A stretch of 64,000 nucleotides of DNA, taken from assembly GCA_964611095.1 (NCBI GenBank), contig CAZSWJ010000003.1, positions 17,796 through 81,795 of the forward strand, in the 5' to 3' direction. How positions within the stretch are numbered: position 1 is the stretch's first letter; every line of letters starts with the position of its first letter. Shown here piece by piece: positions 1-5,463 of the stretch. The notes under the pieces are model-generated. The model worked only from the letters and a program-made list of their open reading frames with translations. It had not been told where the DNA came from and ran no database searches. Origin of the DNA: an uncultured Candidatus Peribacteria bacterium. GTDB lineage: Bacteria; Patescibacteriota; Gracilibacteria; Peribacterales; Peribacteraceae. A program made the position numbers and the translations under genes.

Positions 1-990
1 CAGCTTATCATCTGCGATGACATCGAAGACCTGCAGTCGGTGAAAACCAAAGACGGTCGTGACAAGACCTACAGCTGGCTGATGGGCGAGGTCATCCCCT
101 CCGGCGGACCCAAGACCCGTACGTTCATCGTCGGCAACTTGCTGCATGAAGACTGTCTCCTCAAGAAATTCGAGCGGCACATCGAAGACGGATCGATGGG
201 CGGCATCTATCGCGAGTACCCACTGCTTGATGCTGAGGGCAAAACGCTCTGGCCGGGGAAGTACCCGACCCCCGAGGCAATCATCGAAGAGCGATCGCGC
301 ATCGGCAGCGAGGCGGCGTGGCACCGTGAATTTCTGCTCAGAATCCTCTCCGATGCCGAGCGCGTCATTCACCCGCAGTGGATTCAGTACTACGACGAGT
401 TTCCAGTGGAACAAAAGGGGTGCCATCTCCACCATACGGGAACAGGTATCGATCTCGCCATCTCTCTCAGTGACAGTGCGGACTTCACCGCAATGGTCTC
501 GGCCAGACTCTACTTCATCGATGGGAAAATCCGCATCTACATCCTCCCGAATCCGGTCAATGAGCGATTGACCGCGCTCGATACGTTGGAACGTGCGAAG
601 CAGGTGGCCGATCTCACGAAAGACGGTGGCACATCGAAACTCTACATTGAGGACGTCGGTTACCAATCATCACTCGTCGAACATCTGGAACGAGAGAGCT
701 ACGAAGCAGAGGCAGTGAAAGTGAAGGGACAAGACAAAAGAGCGCGTTTGGCACTCACATCATACGCAGTTCAATCTGGACAGGTTATATTTCCGAAGCA
801 GGGTGCCGAGGATCTCATCAATCAACTCGTGAACTTCGGGATCGAACGTCATGATGATTTGGCCGATGCGTTCTCACTGCTTGTACTCAAAGCGCTTGAA
901 GAGCGGCAGACGAGTATTGGAATTTGCATGATCGGATATGACGGCTCTGTTCATGGATGGGATAGCATTCGCGGCGAGTATTGGGAGTAA
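1..990 (+). CDS. terL: phage terminase large subunit, C-terminal part (5' end lies outside the window)
   Basis: Frame 1 is open from base 1 (QLIICDDIEDL, Walker-B-like). It continues into an RNaseH-like nuclease half (GTGIDLAISLSDSADFTAM ... ERHDDLADAFSLLV). Same frame as track ORF 40..990. Confidence 0.7.
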   Translation, partial: QLIICDDIEDLQSVKTKDGRDKTYSWLMGEVIPSGGPKTRTFIVGNLLHEDCLLKKFERHIEDGSMGGIYREYPLLDAEGKTLWPGKYPTPEAIIEERSRIGSEAAWHREFLLRILSDAERVIHPQWIQYYDEFPVEQKGCHLHHTGTGIDLAISLSDSADFTAMVSARLYFIDGKIRIYILPNPVNERLTALDTLERAKQVADLTKDGGTSKLYIEDVGYQSSLVEHLERESYEAEAVKVKGQDKRARLALTSYAVQSGQVIFPKQGAEDLINQLVNFGIERHDDLADAFSLLVLKALEERQTSIGICMIGYDGSVHGWDSIRGEYWE

Positions 991-1099
991 TTAGCGCTTT
1001 CAGGCGATTCTAGGCGGAGGCAAGCGGGTCTTTCGCCTGGATACCGATCGGGTGTTGCGGCATTGCTGTGGGTAGCTTATTCCCTACCCCAAATTCCTT

Positions 1100-2476
1100 A
1101 TGGCAACCGCCACATTGAGCCGAAAAGCGGCTCTCCCCGAACCCTCCTATATCGATCTCACACCGAAACCGCAGCGAGCAGAGGGAGCCGCCGTCTATTG
1201 TTTGTATGCCAGAAAATCCTCGGAAGAGGATGAAAGGCAAGCGCTCAGTATCGACTCGCAGATCAAAGAAATGCTCGCTGTTGCGAAGCGGGAGAATCTG
1301 GAAATTGCTGAGATCAGACGTGAGAGCCACTCGGCAAAAGCATCCGGTGCCCGTCCCGTCTTCAAACAATTGCTTACTGATATTGCGACAGGAAAATTTA
1401 CAGGAATTCTGACATGGGCACCTGACCGATTAAGCAGGAATGCCGGCGATCTTGGAACGGTCGTCGACCTTATGGATCAGGGTTTCCTCATCGACATCCG
1501 GACACATGGACAGCGATTCACAAACAATCCCAACGAAAAGTTCTTGCTCATGATCCTTTGTTCACAGGCAAAGCTAGAGAATGACAATCGAGGACTCAAT
1601 GTGAAGCGTGGACAGAAGACGAGAGTTGAGATGGGCTACCGGCCATGTTTAACGCCGCTTGGATATCTACAGGAAAAGCAGACAGGCAATGCCAGAAGTA
1701 GAGTCGTGATCGATCCGATCCGTGGACCGATCGTTCGGCAGATGTTCGAGCATGTTTCACAGGGGGCAAGCGGGAGAGTATTGCAGCAATGGCTGAACAA
1801 AGAGGTTCACTTCACCACACGGAAGGGCAAGAAGATCACGCTCAGCATGATCTACCGGATGCTCCGTAACACGTACTACACCGGTCGCTTTGAATACCCT
1901 GAGGGTAGCGGTAATTTTTACGACGGCGATTACGAGCCGCTTTTCTCAAAGAAACTTTTCGATGATGTGCAGAAAGTTCTCGATCTCGCACCGAAGAAAG
2001 AGTGGGGCACGAATGATTTTCACTTCGTCCGTATGTTTACCTGCGGCGGGTGCGAGTCGGGTGTCACGGCGGAGGAGAAGCACAAGTCGCTCAAGGACGG
2101 CAGCATCAAGCGATATATCTACTATCGTTGCACACACAGCCGCAACCTCATGTGCAAGGAACCGTCGATCCGTGAAGATCATCTGATCGAACAACTCACC
2201 GAACTTGTCGACATGATCGACCTCGACGAACTGGGGATGAGGGGAAAACTTGAAGAGGAGGTGTCGCGGTTCAAGAAATTCTCCTCCGGCGTCCTTCGGC
2301 AAACCACCGAGCGAAGTGCGGAGGTGAACAGGGTCGACGTGAGACAGTATGCAAAATACATCCTGCGAGAAGGGACGAAGGACGAGAAGCATGAACTGCT
2401 CGGATGCCTCAAGAGCAAGCTGCTCTTGAAGGATGGATCACTTACGCTTGAGAAGAAAATCAAAGGCAGAAAATAG
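1100..2476 (+). CDS. large serine recombinase (phage-type integrase)
   Basis: N-terminal resolvase domain (YARKSSEEDERQALSIDSQ with catalytic Ser, APDRLSRN), then a recombinase domain and a Cys4 zinc ribbon (CGGCESG ... YYRCTHS). 458 aa. Confidence 0.85.
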   Translation: MATATLSRKAALPEPSYIDLTPKPQRAEGAAVYCLYARKSSEEDERQALSIDSQIKEMLAVAKRENLEIAEIRRESHSAKASGARPVFKQLLTDIATGKFTGILTWAPDRLSRNAGDLGTVVDLMDQGFLIDIRTHGQRFTNNPNEKFLLMILCSQAKLENDNRGLNVKRGQKTRVEMGYRPCLTPLGYLQEKQTGNARSRVVIDPIRGPIVRQMFEHVSQGASGRVLQQWLNKEVHFTTRKGKKITLSMIYRMLRNTYYTGRFEYPEGSGNFYDGDYEPLFSKKLFDDVQKVLDLAPKKEWGTNDFHFVRMFTCGGCESGVTAEEKHKSLKDGSIKRYIYYRCTHSRNLMCKEPSIREDHLIEQLTELVDMIDLDELGMRGKLEEEVSRFKKFSSGVLRQTTERSAEVNRVDVRQYAKYILREGTKDEKHELLGCLKSKLLLKDGSLTLEKKIKGRK

Positions 2477-2483
2477 CCACGGC

Positions 2484-2514
2484 GAACGTCCTCTCCGTTA
2501 AGAGGAGGACGTTC
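2484..2514. terminator. 10-bp perfect hairpin between convergent genes
   Basis: GAACGTCCTC-n11-GAGGACGTTC lies between the recombinase stop (2476) and the stop of the minus-strand gene (2523). There is no clear U-run. Confidence 0.4.
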
Positions 2515-2522
2515 TGCCAGTC

Positions 2523-3434
2523 TTATTTCTTAGCCTTCGACTCGGCTTCGCGAGTCGGGATCGTGCCACCAAAGATGTACTTGAAGGACACGCTTGCCGT
2601 TTTGATTGCAGGATTATCTGTGCCAATTGTCTCGAAAGGGGAGATTTGTCCGGGGAGAATGGGGTTGTACTTGATCATCGCATCATCGCTCTTGATAAAG
2701 TTGTCATCTTTATCATAGAAGCTCGCGACCACCTGTACTCCTTCCATTTTCTGGCCGCTGATGTTCTTCACGGCTCCCTGAACTTTGTCGAAATCGTATG
2801 ACTTCGTGAAATTAAAAGTCTGGAGTTCGAGAAGGGGTGCATCCGCCTGCGTGGGTGCGTTAGCTGTAGTTGCAGGGGTATTCGAAGCTGAAGAAGAGGA
2901 CGACGAATGAGTCGGAGCACTTGCGAAAGCGCCAGAAACGATGGCGAGGAAGAAGACACCGACGATCGAAAGGGCGATGCCATTCTTGTTGGAGAAAGTT
3001 TCAGGTTGCTTCATGCCGGAAGATTCCGCTTTCTTGTCGTAGCTGCTTGTGATGAGATGCATGATAATGCCTCCGATCAAGCCAATCACAAACATCAATC
3101 CGACGACGAATGTACCGCCAATAGCGGTGCCAATAGCGGCTCCTGCTTGCTCCGCATTAGAGCCGGCATTGCTAACGACCCGAGCACCAAGGACAAATGT
3201 ATAGACGACTGCAGAGATGGGGAGCAGAAAGAAACCAAGTTCTGTGAGGCGGAGTAGCCGCTCACTGATGTGATTCTTCTCGGTAAATTGCCATGCGCTC
3301 CAGATCATGACGAGCCAGATGGCAAGGAATCCGAGACCGAGAGCTTTGTTTCCGGTCATCAGACCGTAGTTTTGGGTGAAGACGAGTGCCGGTAGCAGCG
3401 CCAGCAGCACTTTGCGAAGAACGTGGTTCTTCAT
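2523..3434 (-). CDS. hypothetical multi-pass membrane protein with Ser/Thr-rich linker and beta-rich extracytoplasmic C-terminal domain
   Basis: Track ORF 2523..3476 trimmed to the ATG at 3434 (MKNHVLRKVLL). About 5 hydrophobic helices, then SSSSSSASNTPATTA and a domain ending FKYIFGG. Confidence 0.6.
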   Translation of the reverse strand: MKNHVLRKVLLALLPALVFTQNYGLMTGNKALGLGFLAIWLVMIWSAWQFTEKNHISERLLRLTELGFFLLPISAVVYTFVLGARVVSNAGSNAEQAGAAIGTAIGGTFVVGLMFVIGLIGGIIMHLITSSYDKKAESSGMKQPETFSNKNGIALSIVGVFFLAIVSGAFASAPTHSSSSSSASNTPATTANAPTQADAPLLELQTFNFTKSYDFDKVQGAVKNISGQKMEGVQVVASFYDKDDNFIKSDDAMIKYNPILPGQISPFETIGTDNPAIKTASVSFKYIFGGTIPTREAESKAKK

Positions 3435-3680
3435 AAGGAAGTGGGGGAAGGAAGGTAAGACCGTCCCCAGGTACATCCCAAAAGGGACAACCCCGGAGGC
3501 AGGTCGCCCACATTCCCATGCCTGTCGGCACGTTCAGTGGCTGCGCAGGGTTGCCCCTTACGACACTGAAGTGCCAAATATGACAGGAGTATAAAAATAC
3601 TGGGAACTGGGCGACAGACCCAATTTAGCTCACTTAGAAGCCGTTGTGTAGCGGAGTTTGCAAGAGCGGAAAGGACTATT

Positions 3681-4091
3681 TCACTCTCCCTTCTTTTGTT
3701 TCGCCTGGATAAGCCACGTTGAGTGCTCACGGGAAATCTGGCTTTCGCACCGTTCCGTGAGCAACTGATCGCCGCTGGTTCCGGCATAGACGCCCGCTTT
3801 TGACTTGAACATCTCCCTCTCATGCCTGAGCGATTCCGTAGTCGCGCGGTAATTGATCCACTTCTCTTGAGGCTTGAGAACCCCATCGAGAGCTTCAATC
3901 GAGATTATCAGAATGCCAATCAATCCGACAAGCCAACCGGACAGAGCCGAAAAATAACCCATAAAAATAAGGCACGCGGAAATGACAATGGTGGCGATGC
4001 GGAATATATAGAACAAGCGTTTGCTGGCTATACTCTTTCGGTCATACCACTGAATTTCTGGTTCCAGCCGTTGTTCAAGATAATCGCTCAT
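3681..4091 (-). CDS. SLATT / DUF4231-like two-transmembrane protein
   Basis: EIQWYDRKSIASKRLFYIFRIATIVISACLIFMGYF + WLVGLIGILIISIEAL form a 2TM hairpin. This is followed by W.NYRATTESLRHEREMF, the DUF4231 pattern. The gene lies 12 nt downstream of the TIR-like gene. Confidence 0.65.
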   Translation of the reverse strand: MSDYLEQRLEPEIQWYDRKSIASKRLFYIFRIATIVISACLIFMGYFSALSGWLVGLIGILIISIEALDGVLKPQEKWINYRATTESLRHEREMFKSKAGVYAGTSGDQLLTERCESQISREHSTWLIQAKQKKGE

Positions 4092-4103
4092 CGTGTTGAA
4101 GAA

Positions 4104-4571
4104 TTATAATCCAAGCTGCGTATATGTCTCGGATTTATAGTGGTAATCGTCATCTTTGTTCATGGTGTAGTTTTCTAGAGCATGCTTGATAATGGCTGCA
4201 TTGAAAGGAACGAAGATGGCTCCGATGTTATGGATCCAAGAAGGACAACGATCATCACTCTGCCGCGAGCCATTCAAGTTCACGCCAATGATCGTGCATC
4301 CTTTTTCGATGGCCACCTCGGCCTCCCACGGCACATACTTTCTCTTATATTTGGTATTTTCGCCGATGAGCTGGATGAACTTTCCTGCCATGTTGATGCG
4401 CTCACGACATTTACTTTTCACGTAGGCTTCATTATCAGAGTTAATGACATCCGGAAGTTGGCAGTCAGTAAAGTTAAAGTCGATATGCTCATGATTTTTC
4501 CAAGCCTGCATCAGGCGGTAATAATTGATGTCATCACTGCTGAAACCGACGAATGTGCGAGGTAAACTCAT
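4104..4571 (-). CDS. TIR-like protein (MTH538/DUF1863, ThsB-like)
   Basis: RTFVGFSSDDINYYRLMQAW ... FIQLIGENTKYKRKYVPWEAEVAIEKGCTIIGVNLN parallels ThsB (FFSFHYQD ... VLIGSQTFNRRWVRYEIMKSIEKGNKIIGIHIN, recalled from memory). Confidence 0.7.
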   Translation of the reverse strand: MSLPRTFVGFSSDDINYYRLMQAWKNHEHIDFNFTDCQLPDVINSDNEAYVKSKCRERINMAGKFIQLIGENTKYKRKYVPWEAEVAIEKGCTIIGVNLNGSRQSDDRCPSWIHNIGAIFVPFNAAIIKHALENYTMNKDDDYHYKSETYTQLGL

Positions 4572-4728
4572 AGGAGAAGCGATCTTATCCTAATTTTGCT
4601 TATAGCTCAATTTGCGTTCTTGTTGTTCAATTTCTTCCAGAAGAAAGTGGGTCTAGAACAAAATTTGAGATCGAATATTTTGGCTATTCCAAGCCAAAGC
4701 AAGCGGGTCTATATACACGCGCACGTAG

Positions 4729-4803
4729 TGGCTGGGGAGGAGGGATTCGAACCCCCGAATGACGGGTTCAGAGCCCGTTGCCTTACCGCTTGGCGACTCC
4801 CCA
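4729..4803 (-). tRNA. tRNA-Gln (anticodon CUG)
   Basis: The reverse complement folds as a cloverleaf: UGGGGAG/CUCCCCA acceptor, ACGGG-CUCUGAA-CCCGU anticodon arm, GGGGG-UUCGAAU-CCCUC T arm, encoded GCCA end. Close to E. coli tRNA-Gln. Confidence 0.95.
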
Positions 4804-4858
4804 ACGGTTTCGCGTCGGGAGGTTACCCATTTCCTGCGGTTTTGGCCAGGGGACCTGC

Positions 4859-5398
4859 TCAAATCCTCTCACAGCCATGGATACAGATCATGATGCAGAT
4901 CTGGTTCGGGTCGCTGCACGGGCTGCGGCAGACGCTCTTGTAGCCCTCGGGGCAGATTCCCGGGTTCGTGGGAGCGGGCGGCGGAGGCGGTGGCGACGGA
5001 GGTGTTGGCGGCGTCTTGGGATTCTTGAGCGGCCCGCACGGTTTTCGGTCGTTGCTGTAGTCGTTGTTCGCAACGCGGTCGGCGTCGCTCTTCTGCTTGC
5101 GTGCATCGGTGTACTCGCGGCTCCACTGCTTGTCGGCCTCGCGGACGGCGGTCTGCTGCGCGGACTCGTCTTCGTTATTCCACGCATTCACGTAGCCGTC
5201 TTTCTTGTGCTCCATCGCCGCAATGAGCGCGTCATTGTACGTGCGCTGGTTACTGATGATCGCCGACTGGTATTTGGAAACCGCCTGCTGCATGCAGGTG
5301 CGATACTCGGGATTGAGCGTACGAGCCAGCGCTTCGGGCAGCACGAGCGCGCTTCCGACGAGAATGATTGCCGCAAGAAAGAAGGAGAGACGCTTCAT
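4859..5398 (-). CDS. hypothetical secreted protein (signal peptide, Pro-rich linker, Cys-rich C-terminus)
   Basis: MKRLSFFLAAIILVGSALVLPEALA signal, PKTPPTPPSPPPPPPAPTNP linker, and 8 Cys in the last 40 aa. Confidence 0.6.
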   Translation of the reverse strand: MKRLSFFLAAIILVGSALVLPEALARTLNPEYRTCMQQAVSKYQSAIISNQRTYNDALIAAMEHKKDGYVNAWNNEDESAQQTAVREADKQWSREYTDARKQKSDADRVANNDYSNDRKPCGPLKNPKTPPTPPSPPPPPPAPTNPGICPEGYKSVCRSPCSDPNQICIMICIHGCERI

Positions 5399-5463
5399 GG
5401 TCTTATGAGAAGGAGACGGATGATACTCCGAATTCTTTCAATCCGTCATGGTACGCTGCATGC

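What the first reader, a model, noticed from the sequence alone, without database searches (positions are those of the whole stretch)
3681..4571. ThsB-like TIR + bare SLATT (DUF4231) 2TM protein: a minimal Thoeris-like conflict module
Two minus-strand genes are separated by only 12 nt. The 155-aa product has the MTH538/DUF1863 TIR-like layout of Thoeris ThsB: RTFVGFSSDD..., and LIGENTKYKRKYVPWEAEVAIEKGCTIIGVNL with a Glu where ThsB has its catalytic Glu. The 136-aa product shows the DUF4231/SLATT pattern: QWYDRKS..KRLFY, a two-helix TM hairpin, then W.NYRATTESL..E. No SIR2, Macro or SLOG sensor/effector domain is present. If the TIR makes a nucleotide signal, the only candidate effector is therefore a bare 2TM SLATT protein. 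The pair is visibly AT-richer than the chromosome and lies between phage genes and a tRNA. TIR-SLATT linkage has been noted in comparative genomics. To my knowledge this minimal pair is not among the experimentally characterised Thoeris types.
Basis: partly seen in the sequence, partly recalled or inferred. Interest (0 to 1): 0.8.

Follow-up and report, generated by a model that had tools for sequence, protein, structure and literature searches.

The report
Prophage-borne TIR–SLATT (type VII Thoeris) pair
Two adjacent genes at the end of a prophage in a Peregrinibacteria genome encode a TIR signalling enzyme and a small two-helix membrane protein; together they are a member of an anti-phage system described and tested in late 2025 (type VII Thoeris), so the call is correct but the system is no longer new.

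Summary
The window has two minus-strand ORFs, 4104-4571 (155 aa) and 3681-4091 (136 aa), 12 nt apart. Their GC is about 0.445, against 0.55-0.60 for the chromosome.

The first ORF is a ThsB-type TIR (Pfam PF08937 E=2.5e-14; PADLOC ThsB 1e-43). Its AF2 model matches EcThsB2 (8v6t) with TM 0.82. Its invariant Glu83 aligns with the catalytic Glu85 of B. cereus ThsB.

The second ORF is a single-domain SLATT_1/DUF4231 protein with a two-helix membrane hairpin.

The novelty claim is out of date. A December 2025 preprint (Yirmiya et al., doi 10.64898/2025.12.03.692087) defines TIR+SLATT as type VII Thoeris (ThsB/ThsH). It shows phage defence and canonical cADPR as the signal.

This window's TIR clade is listed in that paper's Table S1. 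In most genomes this clade is followed by a ~290-aa SLATT_3+SLATT_1 ThsH or by a ThsI-like protein. Here and in five related lineages it is followed by the short (~135-aa) form. The short form belongs to a large family that lies next to TIR genes in every context inspected.

Both genes are under strong purifying selection. They lie between the serine integrase and tRNA-Gln of a prophage.

Verdict: new member of a known kind. The signal is untested; cADPR is inferred.

The parts
4104..4571 (-). thsB-like gene: 155-aa stand-alone TIR protein, the predicted signal synthase. Its catalytic Glu is Glu83. Phe7 sits at the beta-A active-site position. It has an EcThsB2-like C-terminal tail (YHYKSETYTQLGL).
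   Evidence: Pfam ThsB_TIR E=2.5e-14. PADLOC ThsB1 E=1e-43. PDB profile search hits 8v6t with E=9e-28, and the alignment to B. cereus ThsB places Glu83 on Glu85. AF2 model pLDDT is 80.6. Foldseek to 8v6t gives TM 0.82. W82 and E83 are invariant in 26 homologues. dN/dS is 0.055 against L123.
4092..4103 (-). 12-nt spacer between the TIR stop codon and the SLATT start codon, implying co-transcription.
   Evidence: Sequence read. The spacing is the same in L081/L082 and L123-L126.
3681..4091 (-). thsH-like gene: 136-aa single-domain SLATT_1/DUF4231 protein with a two-helix membrane hairpin. It is the predicted signal-activated membrane effector.
   Evidence: Pfam DUF4231 E=3e-18 and SLATT_1 E=6e-10. 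NCBIfam SLATT_1 E=1e-28. It scores 124 bits against an HMM of the short family built without its own clade, and 23.5 bits against the C-terminal half of long ThsH. The AF2 model is all-helical, pLDDT 82.8. Viral SLATT proteins match the model with TM up to 0.81. Hydropathy shows two membrane segments. dN/dS is 0.028.
4729..4803 (-). tRNA-Gln(CTG). It is the border of the mobile element and the probable integration site. This is context, not part of the system.
   Evidence: ARAGORN. The 88% nt homology to L123 runs over 1..4804 and stops at the 5' end of the tRNA. L081 homology also reaches into the tRNA 3' part.
1100..2476 (+). Large serine recombinase, the prophage integrase (context).
   Evidence: Pfam Resolvase, Recombinase and Zn_ribbon_recom. 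PHROG 95 integrase E=1e-54. It is 92-95% identical to the recombinases next to the same pair in L081 and L123.
40..990 (+). C-terminal part of the terminase large subunit; a prophage structural/packaging gene cut by the window edge (context).
   Evidence: Pfam Terminase_6C. PHROG 38 E=3e-33. The full 499-aa gene, followed by further genes including two DNA methyltransferases, is present in L123.
2523..3476 (-). FxLYD-domain multi-pass membrane protein; variable cargo between the integrase and the pair. There is no evidence that it belongs to the system.
   Evidence: NCBIfam FxLYD_dom E=2.4e-8. It is present in L123 (89.6% aa) but replaced by a helicase plus DNA methyltransferase in L081.

Best explanation
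This is a two-gene, prophage-carried type VII Thoeris system with a short effector.

Proposed mechanism, all steps inferred from the family:
1. The TIR protein (ThsB) senses infection by another phage.
2. Using Glu83, it converts NAD+ into a small ADP-ribose-derived signal, most likely canonical cADPR.
3. The signal binds the cytoplasmic helices of the 136-aa SLATT_1 protein (a short ThsH). The conserved residues there are R8, W15, Y16, S20, W78, R82, E86, H90, Y102, E116, S120, E122 and W126.
4. The effector then oligomerises through its two-helix membrane hairpin and breaches the membrane.
5. This stops growth of the infected lysogen before the invader completes its cycle.

Shown here: the domain identities, the TIR fold, conservation of the catalytic Glu, conserved synteny, purifying selection, the prophage location, and the sharing of effector families with validated cADPR systems.

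Inferred: the trigger, the identity of the signal, ligand binding, oligomerisation and membrane damage.
For: Domains and fold.

The system type is defined and validated in doi 10.64898/2025.12.03.692087. Three TIR+SLATT systems defend against phage, their TIRs make cADPR only on infection, and added cADPR (but not 2'cADPR or 3'cADPR) is toxic to cells carrying the system.

The window's TIR clade (PRTFVGFSS...) is in that paper's Table S1, in cluster 2598792572.

Partners of this clade in 80 species-representative genomes:
- Mostly a ~290-aa SLATT_3+SLATT_1 protein directly downstream.
- Otherwise TPR-S (ThsI-like) proteins.
- The long partners are 39-44% identical, end to end, to the ThsH next to a 95% relative of the validated Alteromonadales TIR.
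- The ThsI-like partners are 56-59% identical between the two TIR clades.
So this clade feeds the same effector families that were shown to respond to cADPR.

Short SLATT_1 relatives of the window protein lie next to:
- TIRs 45-58% identical to the validated B. licheniformis TIR (L028, L120).
- A TIR 71% identical to the validated Alteromonadales TIR (L104).

Active site: the window TIR has Phe at the beta-A position, as do all five cADPR-producing TIRs. His-ADPR-type TIRs have Tyr there (PMC11204291).

Selection and synteny: dN/dS is 0.03-0.06 for both genes. The pair is syntenic in six lineages with TIR identity from 98% down to 72%.
Against: No member of this TIR clade has been tested.

The closest tested TIR is from Bacillus sp. 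PvP124 (45.5% identity). It is a TIR+SLATT system that gave no defence in B. subtilis.

The closest solved structure is EcThsB2, from a type II (TM-Macro) system. That subfamily is linked to His-ADPR, and EcThsB2 showed no NADase activity in vitro.

I could not retrieve the B. licheniformis effector itself, so 'validated short ThsH' rests on TIR homologues.

The window effector lacks the SLATT_3 domain of the validated Alteromonadales ThsH, so its ligand pocket could differ.

No promoter-like site was found upstream of the TIR gene. The scan is sigma-70-specific and the host is a CPR bacterium.
Confidence: 0.75

Rival explanations
1. Same architecture but a different signal. The TIR makes His-ADPR or another ADPR conjugate or isomer rather than canonical cADPR, and the short SLATT protein is tuned to that molecule.
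For: The nearest structure and sequence relative is EcThsB2, of the type II TM-Macro subfamily 9, including the conserved C-terminal tail. The preprint places this clade in the same cluster (2598792572) as type II and type X TIRs. The type X signal is unknown. The only tested TIR+SLATT system from that cluster did not defend.
Against: The window clade has Phe, not the subfamily-specific Tyr, at the active-site position. The clade is coupled to ThsH-long and ThsI-like effectors, both shown to respond to cADPR. No Macro domain is nearby.
Confidence: 0.17
2. The TIR is itself the effector, an NAD+-depleting NADase. The SLATT protein has another role, for example as a sensor, membrane anchor or regulator, so no diffusible signal is involved.
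For: Many bacterial TIRs act as NAD+ depleters in other systems (stated in the preprint). Nothing here measures a product.
Against: The same highly conserved TIR (65-72% identity across phyla) swaps between unrelated downstream proteins: SLATT long, SLATT short, TPR-S and PfkB-like. This is the pattern of a signal generator with exchangeable effectors. SLATT proteins are effectors in CBASS and in type VII Thoeris.
Confidence: 0.05
3. The pair is a decaying or inactive remnant. For example, the 136-aa ORF could be a truncated ThsH that lost its SLATT_3 half.
For: Most members of the TIR clade have a ~290-aa two-domain partner.
Against: dN/dS is 0.028-0.055. Intact ORFs of 133-136 aa persist in six diverged lineages with saturated synonymous sites. 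The protein scores 124 bits against the independent short-family HMM and 23.5 bits against the long-ThsH C-terminal half.
Confidence: 0.03

Closest known systems
Type VII Thoeris (ThsB + ThsH, SLATT effector); Yirmiya et al., bioRxiv 2025, doi 10.64898/2025.12.03.692087
   Same: Both are a two-gene TIR + SLATT operon. The TIR has the catalytic Glu and the beta-A Phe. The effector is a membrane-spanning SLATT protein. The window's TIR clade is catalogued in that study's Table S1. The effector's SLATT_1 domain is homologous to the C-terminal domain of the Alteromonadales-type ThsH.
   Different: The validated Alteromonadales-type ThsH is ~290 aa (SLATT_3+SLATT_1, four predicted membrane helices), whereas this effector is 136 aa (SLATT_1 only). 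The TIR is only 24-32% identical to the three cADPR-proven type VII TIRs. The host is a CPR bacterium and the carrier is a prophage. The signal and defence are untested.
Type VIII Thoeris (ThsB + ThsI, CMP-hydrolase/TPR effector), same preprint
   Same: Close relatives of the window TIR (same clade, 55-70% identity) are paired with ThsI-like TPR-S proteins. [quoted passage not shown]
   Different: No ThsI-like gene is present in the window.
EcThsB2 (PDB 8V6T) of the E. coli type II TM-Macro Thoeris; Shi et al., Sci Adv 2024 (PMC11204291)
   Same: It is the best structural and sequence match (E=9e-28; TM 0.82). It has the same compact TIR with a ~20-residue C-terminal tail carrying conserved Tyr residues.
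   Different: EcThsB2 has an active-site Tyr (aligned to Phe7 here) and works with a Macro-domain effector. No Macro domain is present here.
SLATT / 2TM effectors of CBASS (Burroughs et al. 2015 comparative genomics; cited in the preprint)
   Same: Same SLATT superfamily and a two-helix membrane hairpin. Both are presumed to damage the membrane after nucleotide-triggered oligomerisation.
   Different: No CD-NTase/SMODS gene is nearby; the partner is a TIR. The PADLOC CBASS 2TM effector model matches only at E=0.027.
DUF4231-TIR gene pairs of temperate Staphylococcus phages (X2, 187, SN8, SP197, etc.)
   Same: They carry a short SLATT_1/DUF4231 protein (145 aa, 35.6% identical to the window's) next to a small TIR. 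The pair lies in the lysogeny region next to the integrase of a temperate phage.
   Different: The gene order is reversed (SLATT then TIR, overlapping). The TIR is of the Bacillus type VII clade (57% identical to B. nitratireducens) and only 32% identical to the window TIR.

Membership tests
Thoeris type VII (ThsB/ThsH) | Stand-alone TIR-domain protein with the catalytic glutamate | tested here: met
   PF08937 E=2.5e-14. The fold matches 8v6t with TM 0.82. Glu83 aligns with BcThsB Glu85 and with the Glu of all reference ThsBs and is invariant in 26 homologues.
Thoeris type VII (ThsB/ThsH) | Adjacent, co-oriented gene for a SLATT-domain membrane protein | tested here: met
   SLATT_1/DUF4231 hits. 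12-nt spacer. Two membrane helices.
Thoeris type VII (ThsB/ThsH) | TIR-SLATT linkage conserved across genomes | tested here: met
   The same pair is found in six lineages with TIR identity of 72-98%. Distant short SLATT_1 homologues lie next to TIR genes in L028, L083, L086, L104, L120, L121 and phage X2; in L006 the short SLATT_1 ORF lies ~1.6 kb from the TIR, beyond a ThsI-like gene.
Thoeris type VII (ThsB/ThsH) | Effector homologous to an experimentally validated ThsH | tested here: inconclusive
   The protein matches the SLATT_1 half of the Alteromonadales-type ThsH family end to end, but weakly (E=3e-9, 23.5 bits). Short-family members pair with TIRs 45-58% identical to the validated B. 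licheniformis TIR. The B. licheniformis effector sequence itself could not be retrieved.
Thoeris type VII (ThsB/ThsH) | Two-domain SLATT_3+SLATT_1 architecture of the Alteromonadales-type ThsH | tested here: not met
   There is no match to the N-terminal (SLATT_3) HMM. The protein is 136 aa against 288-290 aa. This is an architecture of one validated representative; the preprint's definition is by the SLATT domain only.
Thoeris type VII (ThsB/ThsH) | Phage-dependent production of canonical cADPR by the TIR | not testable with these tools
   Indirect support only: Phe at the beta-A position, as in all five cADPR producers, and effector families shared with cADPR systems.
Thoeris type VII (ThsB/ThsH) | cADPR-triggered toxicity of the effector and protection against phage | not testable with these tools
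   Needs expression and phage challenge. The nearest tested system (PvP124, 45.5% TIR identity) showed no defence in B. subtilis.
Thoeris type II (TM-Macro ThsA/ThsC + ThsB subfamily 9) | Macro-domain membrane effector next to the TIR | tested here: not met
   No Macro domain in the pair or its neighbours.
Thoeris type II (TM-Macro ThsA/ThsC + ThsB subfamily 9) | Active-site tyrosine hydrogen-bonded to the catalytic Glu | tested here: not met
   Window Phe7 (invariant in the clade) aligns with the Tyr of EcThsB2 and of B. amyloliquefaciens ThsB. Identifying that Tyr as the active-site Tyr is my inference from its position; the paper's text gives no residue number.
Thoeris type II (TM-Macro ThsA/ThsC + ThsB subfamily 9) | EcThsB2-like TIR fold with a C-terminal tail folding back on the domain | tested here: met
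   The Foldseek alignment to 8v6t covers 169 columns at TM 0.82. The tail motif Y-x-Y...Y-T-x-L-G-L is conserved.
Thoeris type I | SIR2-SLOG ThsA effector | tested here: not met
   No SIR2 or SLOG hit in the neighbourhood.
CBASS with SLATT/2TM effector | CD-NTase (SMODS) nucleotide cyclase in the operon | tested here: not met
   None among the six Pfam-scanned ORFs of window 1-5400 or in the called genes of L123. The PADLOC CBASS 2TM model matches only at E=0.027.

The most novel reading that the evidence does not exclude
The Phe-type, EcThsB2-like TIR clade paired with the short single-domain ThsH might use a signal that is neither canonical cADPR nor His-ADPR. That would make the Peregrinibacteria prophage pair a distinct Thoeris subtype. 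Separately, it would be an early documented case of a temperate phage of a CPR (candidate phyla radiation) bacterium carrying a nucleotide-signalling abortive-infection system.
Probability: 0.15. Interest if true: 0.5.

Novelty: new member of a known kind. Interest (0 to 1): 0.25.

Why it matters
The finding mainly extends a freshly described defence family.

- It shows that type VII Thoeris reaches CPR bacteria. There it travels as cargo next to the integrase of temperate phages.
- It shows that one very conserved TIR clade is wired both to the long (SLATT_3+SLATT_1) effector and to a half-size (SLATT_1-only) effector.
- The short effector is a compact test case for how a SLATT domain recognises a cyclic ADPR signal, since no SLATT structure is solved.
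- The Phe/Tyr difference at the TIR active site gives a simple sequence marker to test for cADPR-type versus His-ADPR-type chemistry within one cluster.

Tried and rejected
- PADLOC (2023 models) recognises only ThsB and gives no significant effector call for the SLATT protein, so that database would not name the system.
- A PDB fold search with the SLATT model found nothing significant (best E=0.41). There is no solved relative.
- The sigma-70 promoter and terminator scan found no site upstream of the TIR gene and no convincing terminator after the SLATT gene.
- The look-up of P0221 (Bacillus methanolicus short SLATT) found no record.
- tblastn of the B. licheniformis TIR against plasmids found TIR genes. 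The one region I opened (Planococcus plasmid) listed no SLATT neighbour, but that gene table is incomplete, so it was uninformative.
- I considered that the 136-aa ORF is a truncated long ThsH and rejected this on HMM scores and selection.
- I considered the FxLYD membrane protein (2523-3476) as a third component and rejected it, because L081 has other genes there and L127, L131 and L132 lack it.
- I considered a CBASS remnant and rejected it, because no cyclase is present.
- The other end of the prophage lies outside the window, so att repeats could not be checked.
Full report
**1. Observation**

The two minus-strand ORFs are exactly as described. The first is 4104-4571 (155 aa) and the second is 3681-4091 (136 aa), with a 12-nt spacer. 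All quoted motifs are present.

Profile searches give strong matches.
- The 155-aa protein hits Pfam ThsB_TIR (PF08937, E=2.5e-14) and PADLOC ThsB1 (E=1e-43).
- The 136-aa protein hits DUF4231 (E=3e-18), Pfam SLATT_1 (E=6e-10) and NCBIfam SLATT_1 (E=1e-28).

GC is about 0.445 across the pair and 0.55-0.63 in the chromosome to the right. tRNA-Gln(CTG) lies at 4729-4803 on the same strand. To the left are an FxLYD membrane protein, a large serine recombinase and a terminase large-subunit fragment.

**2. The TIR protein**

More than 950 homologues share 65-72% identity across very different phyla: Nitrospira, Paenibacillus, Legionella, Stenotrophomonas, cyanobacteria and Peregrinibacteria. A 26-sequence alignment has 44 invariant columns, including W82 and E83.

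A profile search of the PDB puts EcThsB2 (8v6t) first (E=9e-28). It aligns the WE motif with R-Y-E85 of B. cereus ThsB, the catalytic Glu (the role of E85 is from established knowledge of type I Thoeris). The AF2 model (pLDDT 80.6) superposes on 8v6t with TM 0.82.

EcThsB2 belongs to a ThsB subfamily tied to TM-Macro (type II) Thoeris. That subfamily has an unusual active-site Tyr and a C-terminal tail (PMC11204291). The window protein keeps the tail.

At the beta-A position, however, the window protein has Phe7. The same column holds:
- Phe in all five TIRs shown to make cADPR (types VII and VIII), and also in the type I and type IV references;
- Tyr in EcThsB2, the B. amyloliquefaciens type II ThsB, the type X TIRs and the Bacillus sp. 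PvP124 TIR.

That this column is the active-site Tyr is my inference from its position. The paper's text does not number the residue.

**3. What is already known**

Yirmiya et al. (bioRxiv, 3 Dec 2025) scanned defence islands for TIR operons and named TIR+SLATT 'type VII Thoeris' (ThsB + ThsH).

Three such systems protected E. coli or B. subtilis against phage: an Alteromonadales scaffold, Pseudohongiella nitratireducens and B. licheniformis. Their TIRs made canonical cADPR only after infection. Added cADPR, but not 2'cADPR or 3'cADPR, stopped growth of cells carrying the system. The sponges Tad1 and MoTad2 did not block defence. Type VIII (ThsI, CMP hydrolase + TPR) uses the same signal. A 2026 preprint already uses type VII as a cADPR reporter.

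The window's TIR clade (PRTFVGFSSTD...) appears in the preprint's Table S1 under cluster 2598792572. Among the TIRs that were tested, the closest is Bacillus sp. PvP124 (45.5% identity, TIR+SLATT, no defence seen). The three cADPR-proven type VII TIRs are 24-32% identical where they align.

**4. Partners of the TIR clade**

I examined 80 loci from species-representative genomes, using HMMs built here and Pfam.
- Most members of the clade are followed directly by a 285-304-aa protein with SLATT_3 (N-terminal) and SLATT_1 (C-terminal) domains.
- Others are flanked by TPR-S proteins of about 412 aa (ThsI-like), PfkB-like proteins, or a 193-aa protein.
- Several Pseudomonas loci have a TPR-S - TIR - SLATT3/1 arrangement, matching the dual-effector operons noted in the preprint.

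I then fetched metagenome relatives (up to 95% identity) of the validated Alteromonadales TIR. These are followed by a 288-290-aa protein of the same SLATT_3+SLATT_1 family. It is 39-44% identical, end to end, to the partners of the window's TIR clade. ThsI-like partners are 56-59% identical between the two clades.

So unrelated TIR clades share the same effector families. This is the main argument that the window's clade also signals with cADPR.

**5. The short effector**

The window's SLATT protein aligns end to end with the C-terminal (SLATT_1) half of long ThsH (E=3e-9) and not with the N-terminal half. It is not a recent truncation.
- It scores 124 bits against an HMM of short stand-alone SLATT_1 proteins built without its own clade.
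- That family is large: 1790 clusters in the word-indexed search and 4734 representatives in the exhaustive search. Nearly all of the best 150 are 135-165 aa.

Every member whose context I inspected lies in a ThsB_TIR neighbourhood; nearly all are directly beside the TIR gene (in L104 about 0.5 kb away, in L006 about 1.6 kb).
- L083-L086.
- L104, near a TIR 71% identical to the validated Alteromonadales one.
- L120, Lysinibacillus; the TIR is 81.5% identical to the B. nitratireducens type VII TIR and 44.5% to the validated B. licheniformis TIR.
- L028; the TIR is 57.8% identical to the B. licheniformis TIR.
- L121.
- Staphylococcus temperate phages such as X2, where DUF4231 (145 aa) and TIR (135 aa) lie between the repressor and the integrase.

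It is therefore likely, though not shown, that the Bacillus-type validated ThsH is the short form.

The AF2 model (pLDDT 82.8) is four helices: 3-46, 52-72, 74-96 and 107-135. Hydropathy gives membrane segments at about 25-47 and 53-72, joined by an uncharged 5-residue loop, so both termini are on one side. The model matches SLATT proteins of giant viruses (TM up to 0.81). It matches nothing significant in the PDB.

Seventeen columns are invariant across 57 family members. Most fall in the non-membrane helices: R8, W15, Y16, S20, W78, R82, E86, H90, Y102, E116, S120, E122 and W126. This makes those helices the natural candidate for the ligand and oligomer interface (inference).

**6. Conservation and context**

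The same TIR + short-SLATT pair occurs in six diverged lineages:

| Locus | TIR identity to window |
|---|---|
| L123 | 98% |
| L081 | 88% |
| L131 | 80% |
| L127 / L003 | 77% |
| L132 | 72% |

(The sixth lineage is the window itself.)

dN/dS between the window and L123 is 0.055 for the TIR gene and 0.028 for the SLATT gene. In the deeper comparisons synonymous sites are saturated while pN stays at 0.07-0.24.

The organism is a Peregrinibacteria (CPR) bacterium, judging from the titles of the matching species-representative genomes.

The window matches L123 at 88% nt identity from position 1 to 4804, that is through the tRNA-Gln. The flanks beyond that point are unrelated. L123 continues leftwards into a full terminase gene and further genes, two of them DNA methyltransferases, one with a ParB_N domain.

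L081 has the same integrase (92% aa) and the same pair. Between them it carries a helicase and an N6/N4 methyltransferase instead of the FxLYD protein. L131 has integrase, an S24 repressor and then the pair.

The pair is therefore cargo in the variable, integrase-proximal end of temperate phages that use tRNA-Gln as a border. Both proteins also match PHROG families of unknown function.

**7. Mechanism and rivals**

Best explanation (0.75 for the architecture and logic; about 0.55-0.6 for cADPR specifically): a prophage-borne type VII Thoeris. The TIR makes cADPR on superinfection, and a short ThsH oligomerises in the membrane and aborts the infection.

Rivals:
- The same logic with a different ADPR-derived signal (0.17). 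This is favoured by the EcThsB2-like fold and the cluster membership. It is disfavoured by Phe7 and by the shared ThsH and ThsI effectors.
- The TIR acts as an NAD+-depleting effector (0.05).
- The pair is an inactive remnant (0.03, contradicted by selection).

**8. Verdict**

The pair is a new member of a known kind.

The modest new points are the CPR-prophage setting, the pairing of this TIR clade with the short effector, and the Phe/Tyr marker. Interest 0.25.

Noticed in passing
window 2523-3476 versus L081 1102-5582: The stretch between the serine integrase and the TIR-SLATT pair is a variable cargo slot in related Peregrinibacteria prophages. The window and L123 carry an FxLYD membrane protein there. 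L081 has the same integrase (92% aa) but carries a ResIII/SWI2-SNF2 helicase plus an N6/N4 DNA methyltransferase.
   Followed up: partly
window 4729-4804: The 88% nt homology to L123 covers 1..4804 and stops exactly at the 5' end of tRNA-Gln. The flanks beyond are unrelated. This suggests the tRNA is the integration border of the element in different hosts. The other prophage end is outside the window.
   Followed up: partly
L127 7748-7981 (= L003 4748-4981): A 77-aa DUF2188 gene sits 20 nt upstream of the TIR gene in another Peregrinibacteria genome, next to tRNA-Asp. The Yirmiya preprint mentions DUF2188 as a putative Thoeris effector. No such gene is present in the window.
   Followed up: no
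L029 5418-6578, L031 5429-6631, L033 1349-2551; L017 5573-6154, L030 5579-6160: The same TIR clade is sometimes followed by a 386-400-aa PfkB-like (ribokinase-fold) protein, or by a 193-aa protein with no Pfam hit, instead of a SLATT or TPR-S protein. These may be further effector types. I did not check whether they are among the 29 types listed in the preprint.
   Followed up: no
L061-L066, L057, L068 (Pseudomonas): These loci carry three-gene TPR-S - TIR - SLATT_3/SLATT_1 operons. A second, divergent TIR gene and a PfkB-like gene lie a few kb downstream on the other strand.
   Followed up: partly
window 4104-4571 and homologues (A1): The TIR is unusually conserved for a defence gene: 65-72% identity across distant phyla and 44 invariant columns of 155. 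Its partner effectors are swapped or diverge fast; the short SLATT falls to 35-41% identity outside its own clade.
   Followed up: partly
L129 2567-3405 (Staphylococcus phage X2, NC_007065.1): Cultured temperate Staphylococcus phages (X2, 187, SN8, SN10, SP197, WIS42 and others) carry an overlapping DUF4231 (145 aa) - TIR (135 aa) pair between the repressor and the integrase. RefSeq annotates it only by domain names.
   Followed up: partly
L132 1150-5365: In one lineage the TIR + short-SLATT pair is followed by a Vpar_1526-family protein, a Bro-N protein, a MazG-like protein and a Schlafen-like helicase. This looks like a phage or defence-island context.
   Followed up: no
window 4859-5398 (-): A 179-aa ORF immediately beyond the tRNA has an N-terminal hydrophobic segment and a proline-rich stretch (PPTPPSPPPPPPAP). 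Local GC is 0.60-0.63. Only weak Pfam hits were found.
   Followed up: no
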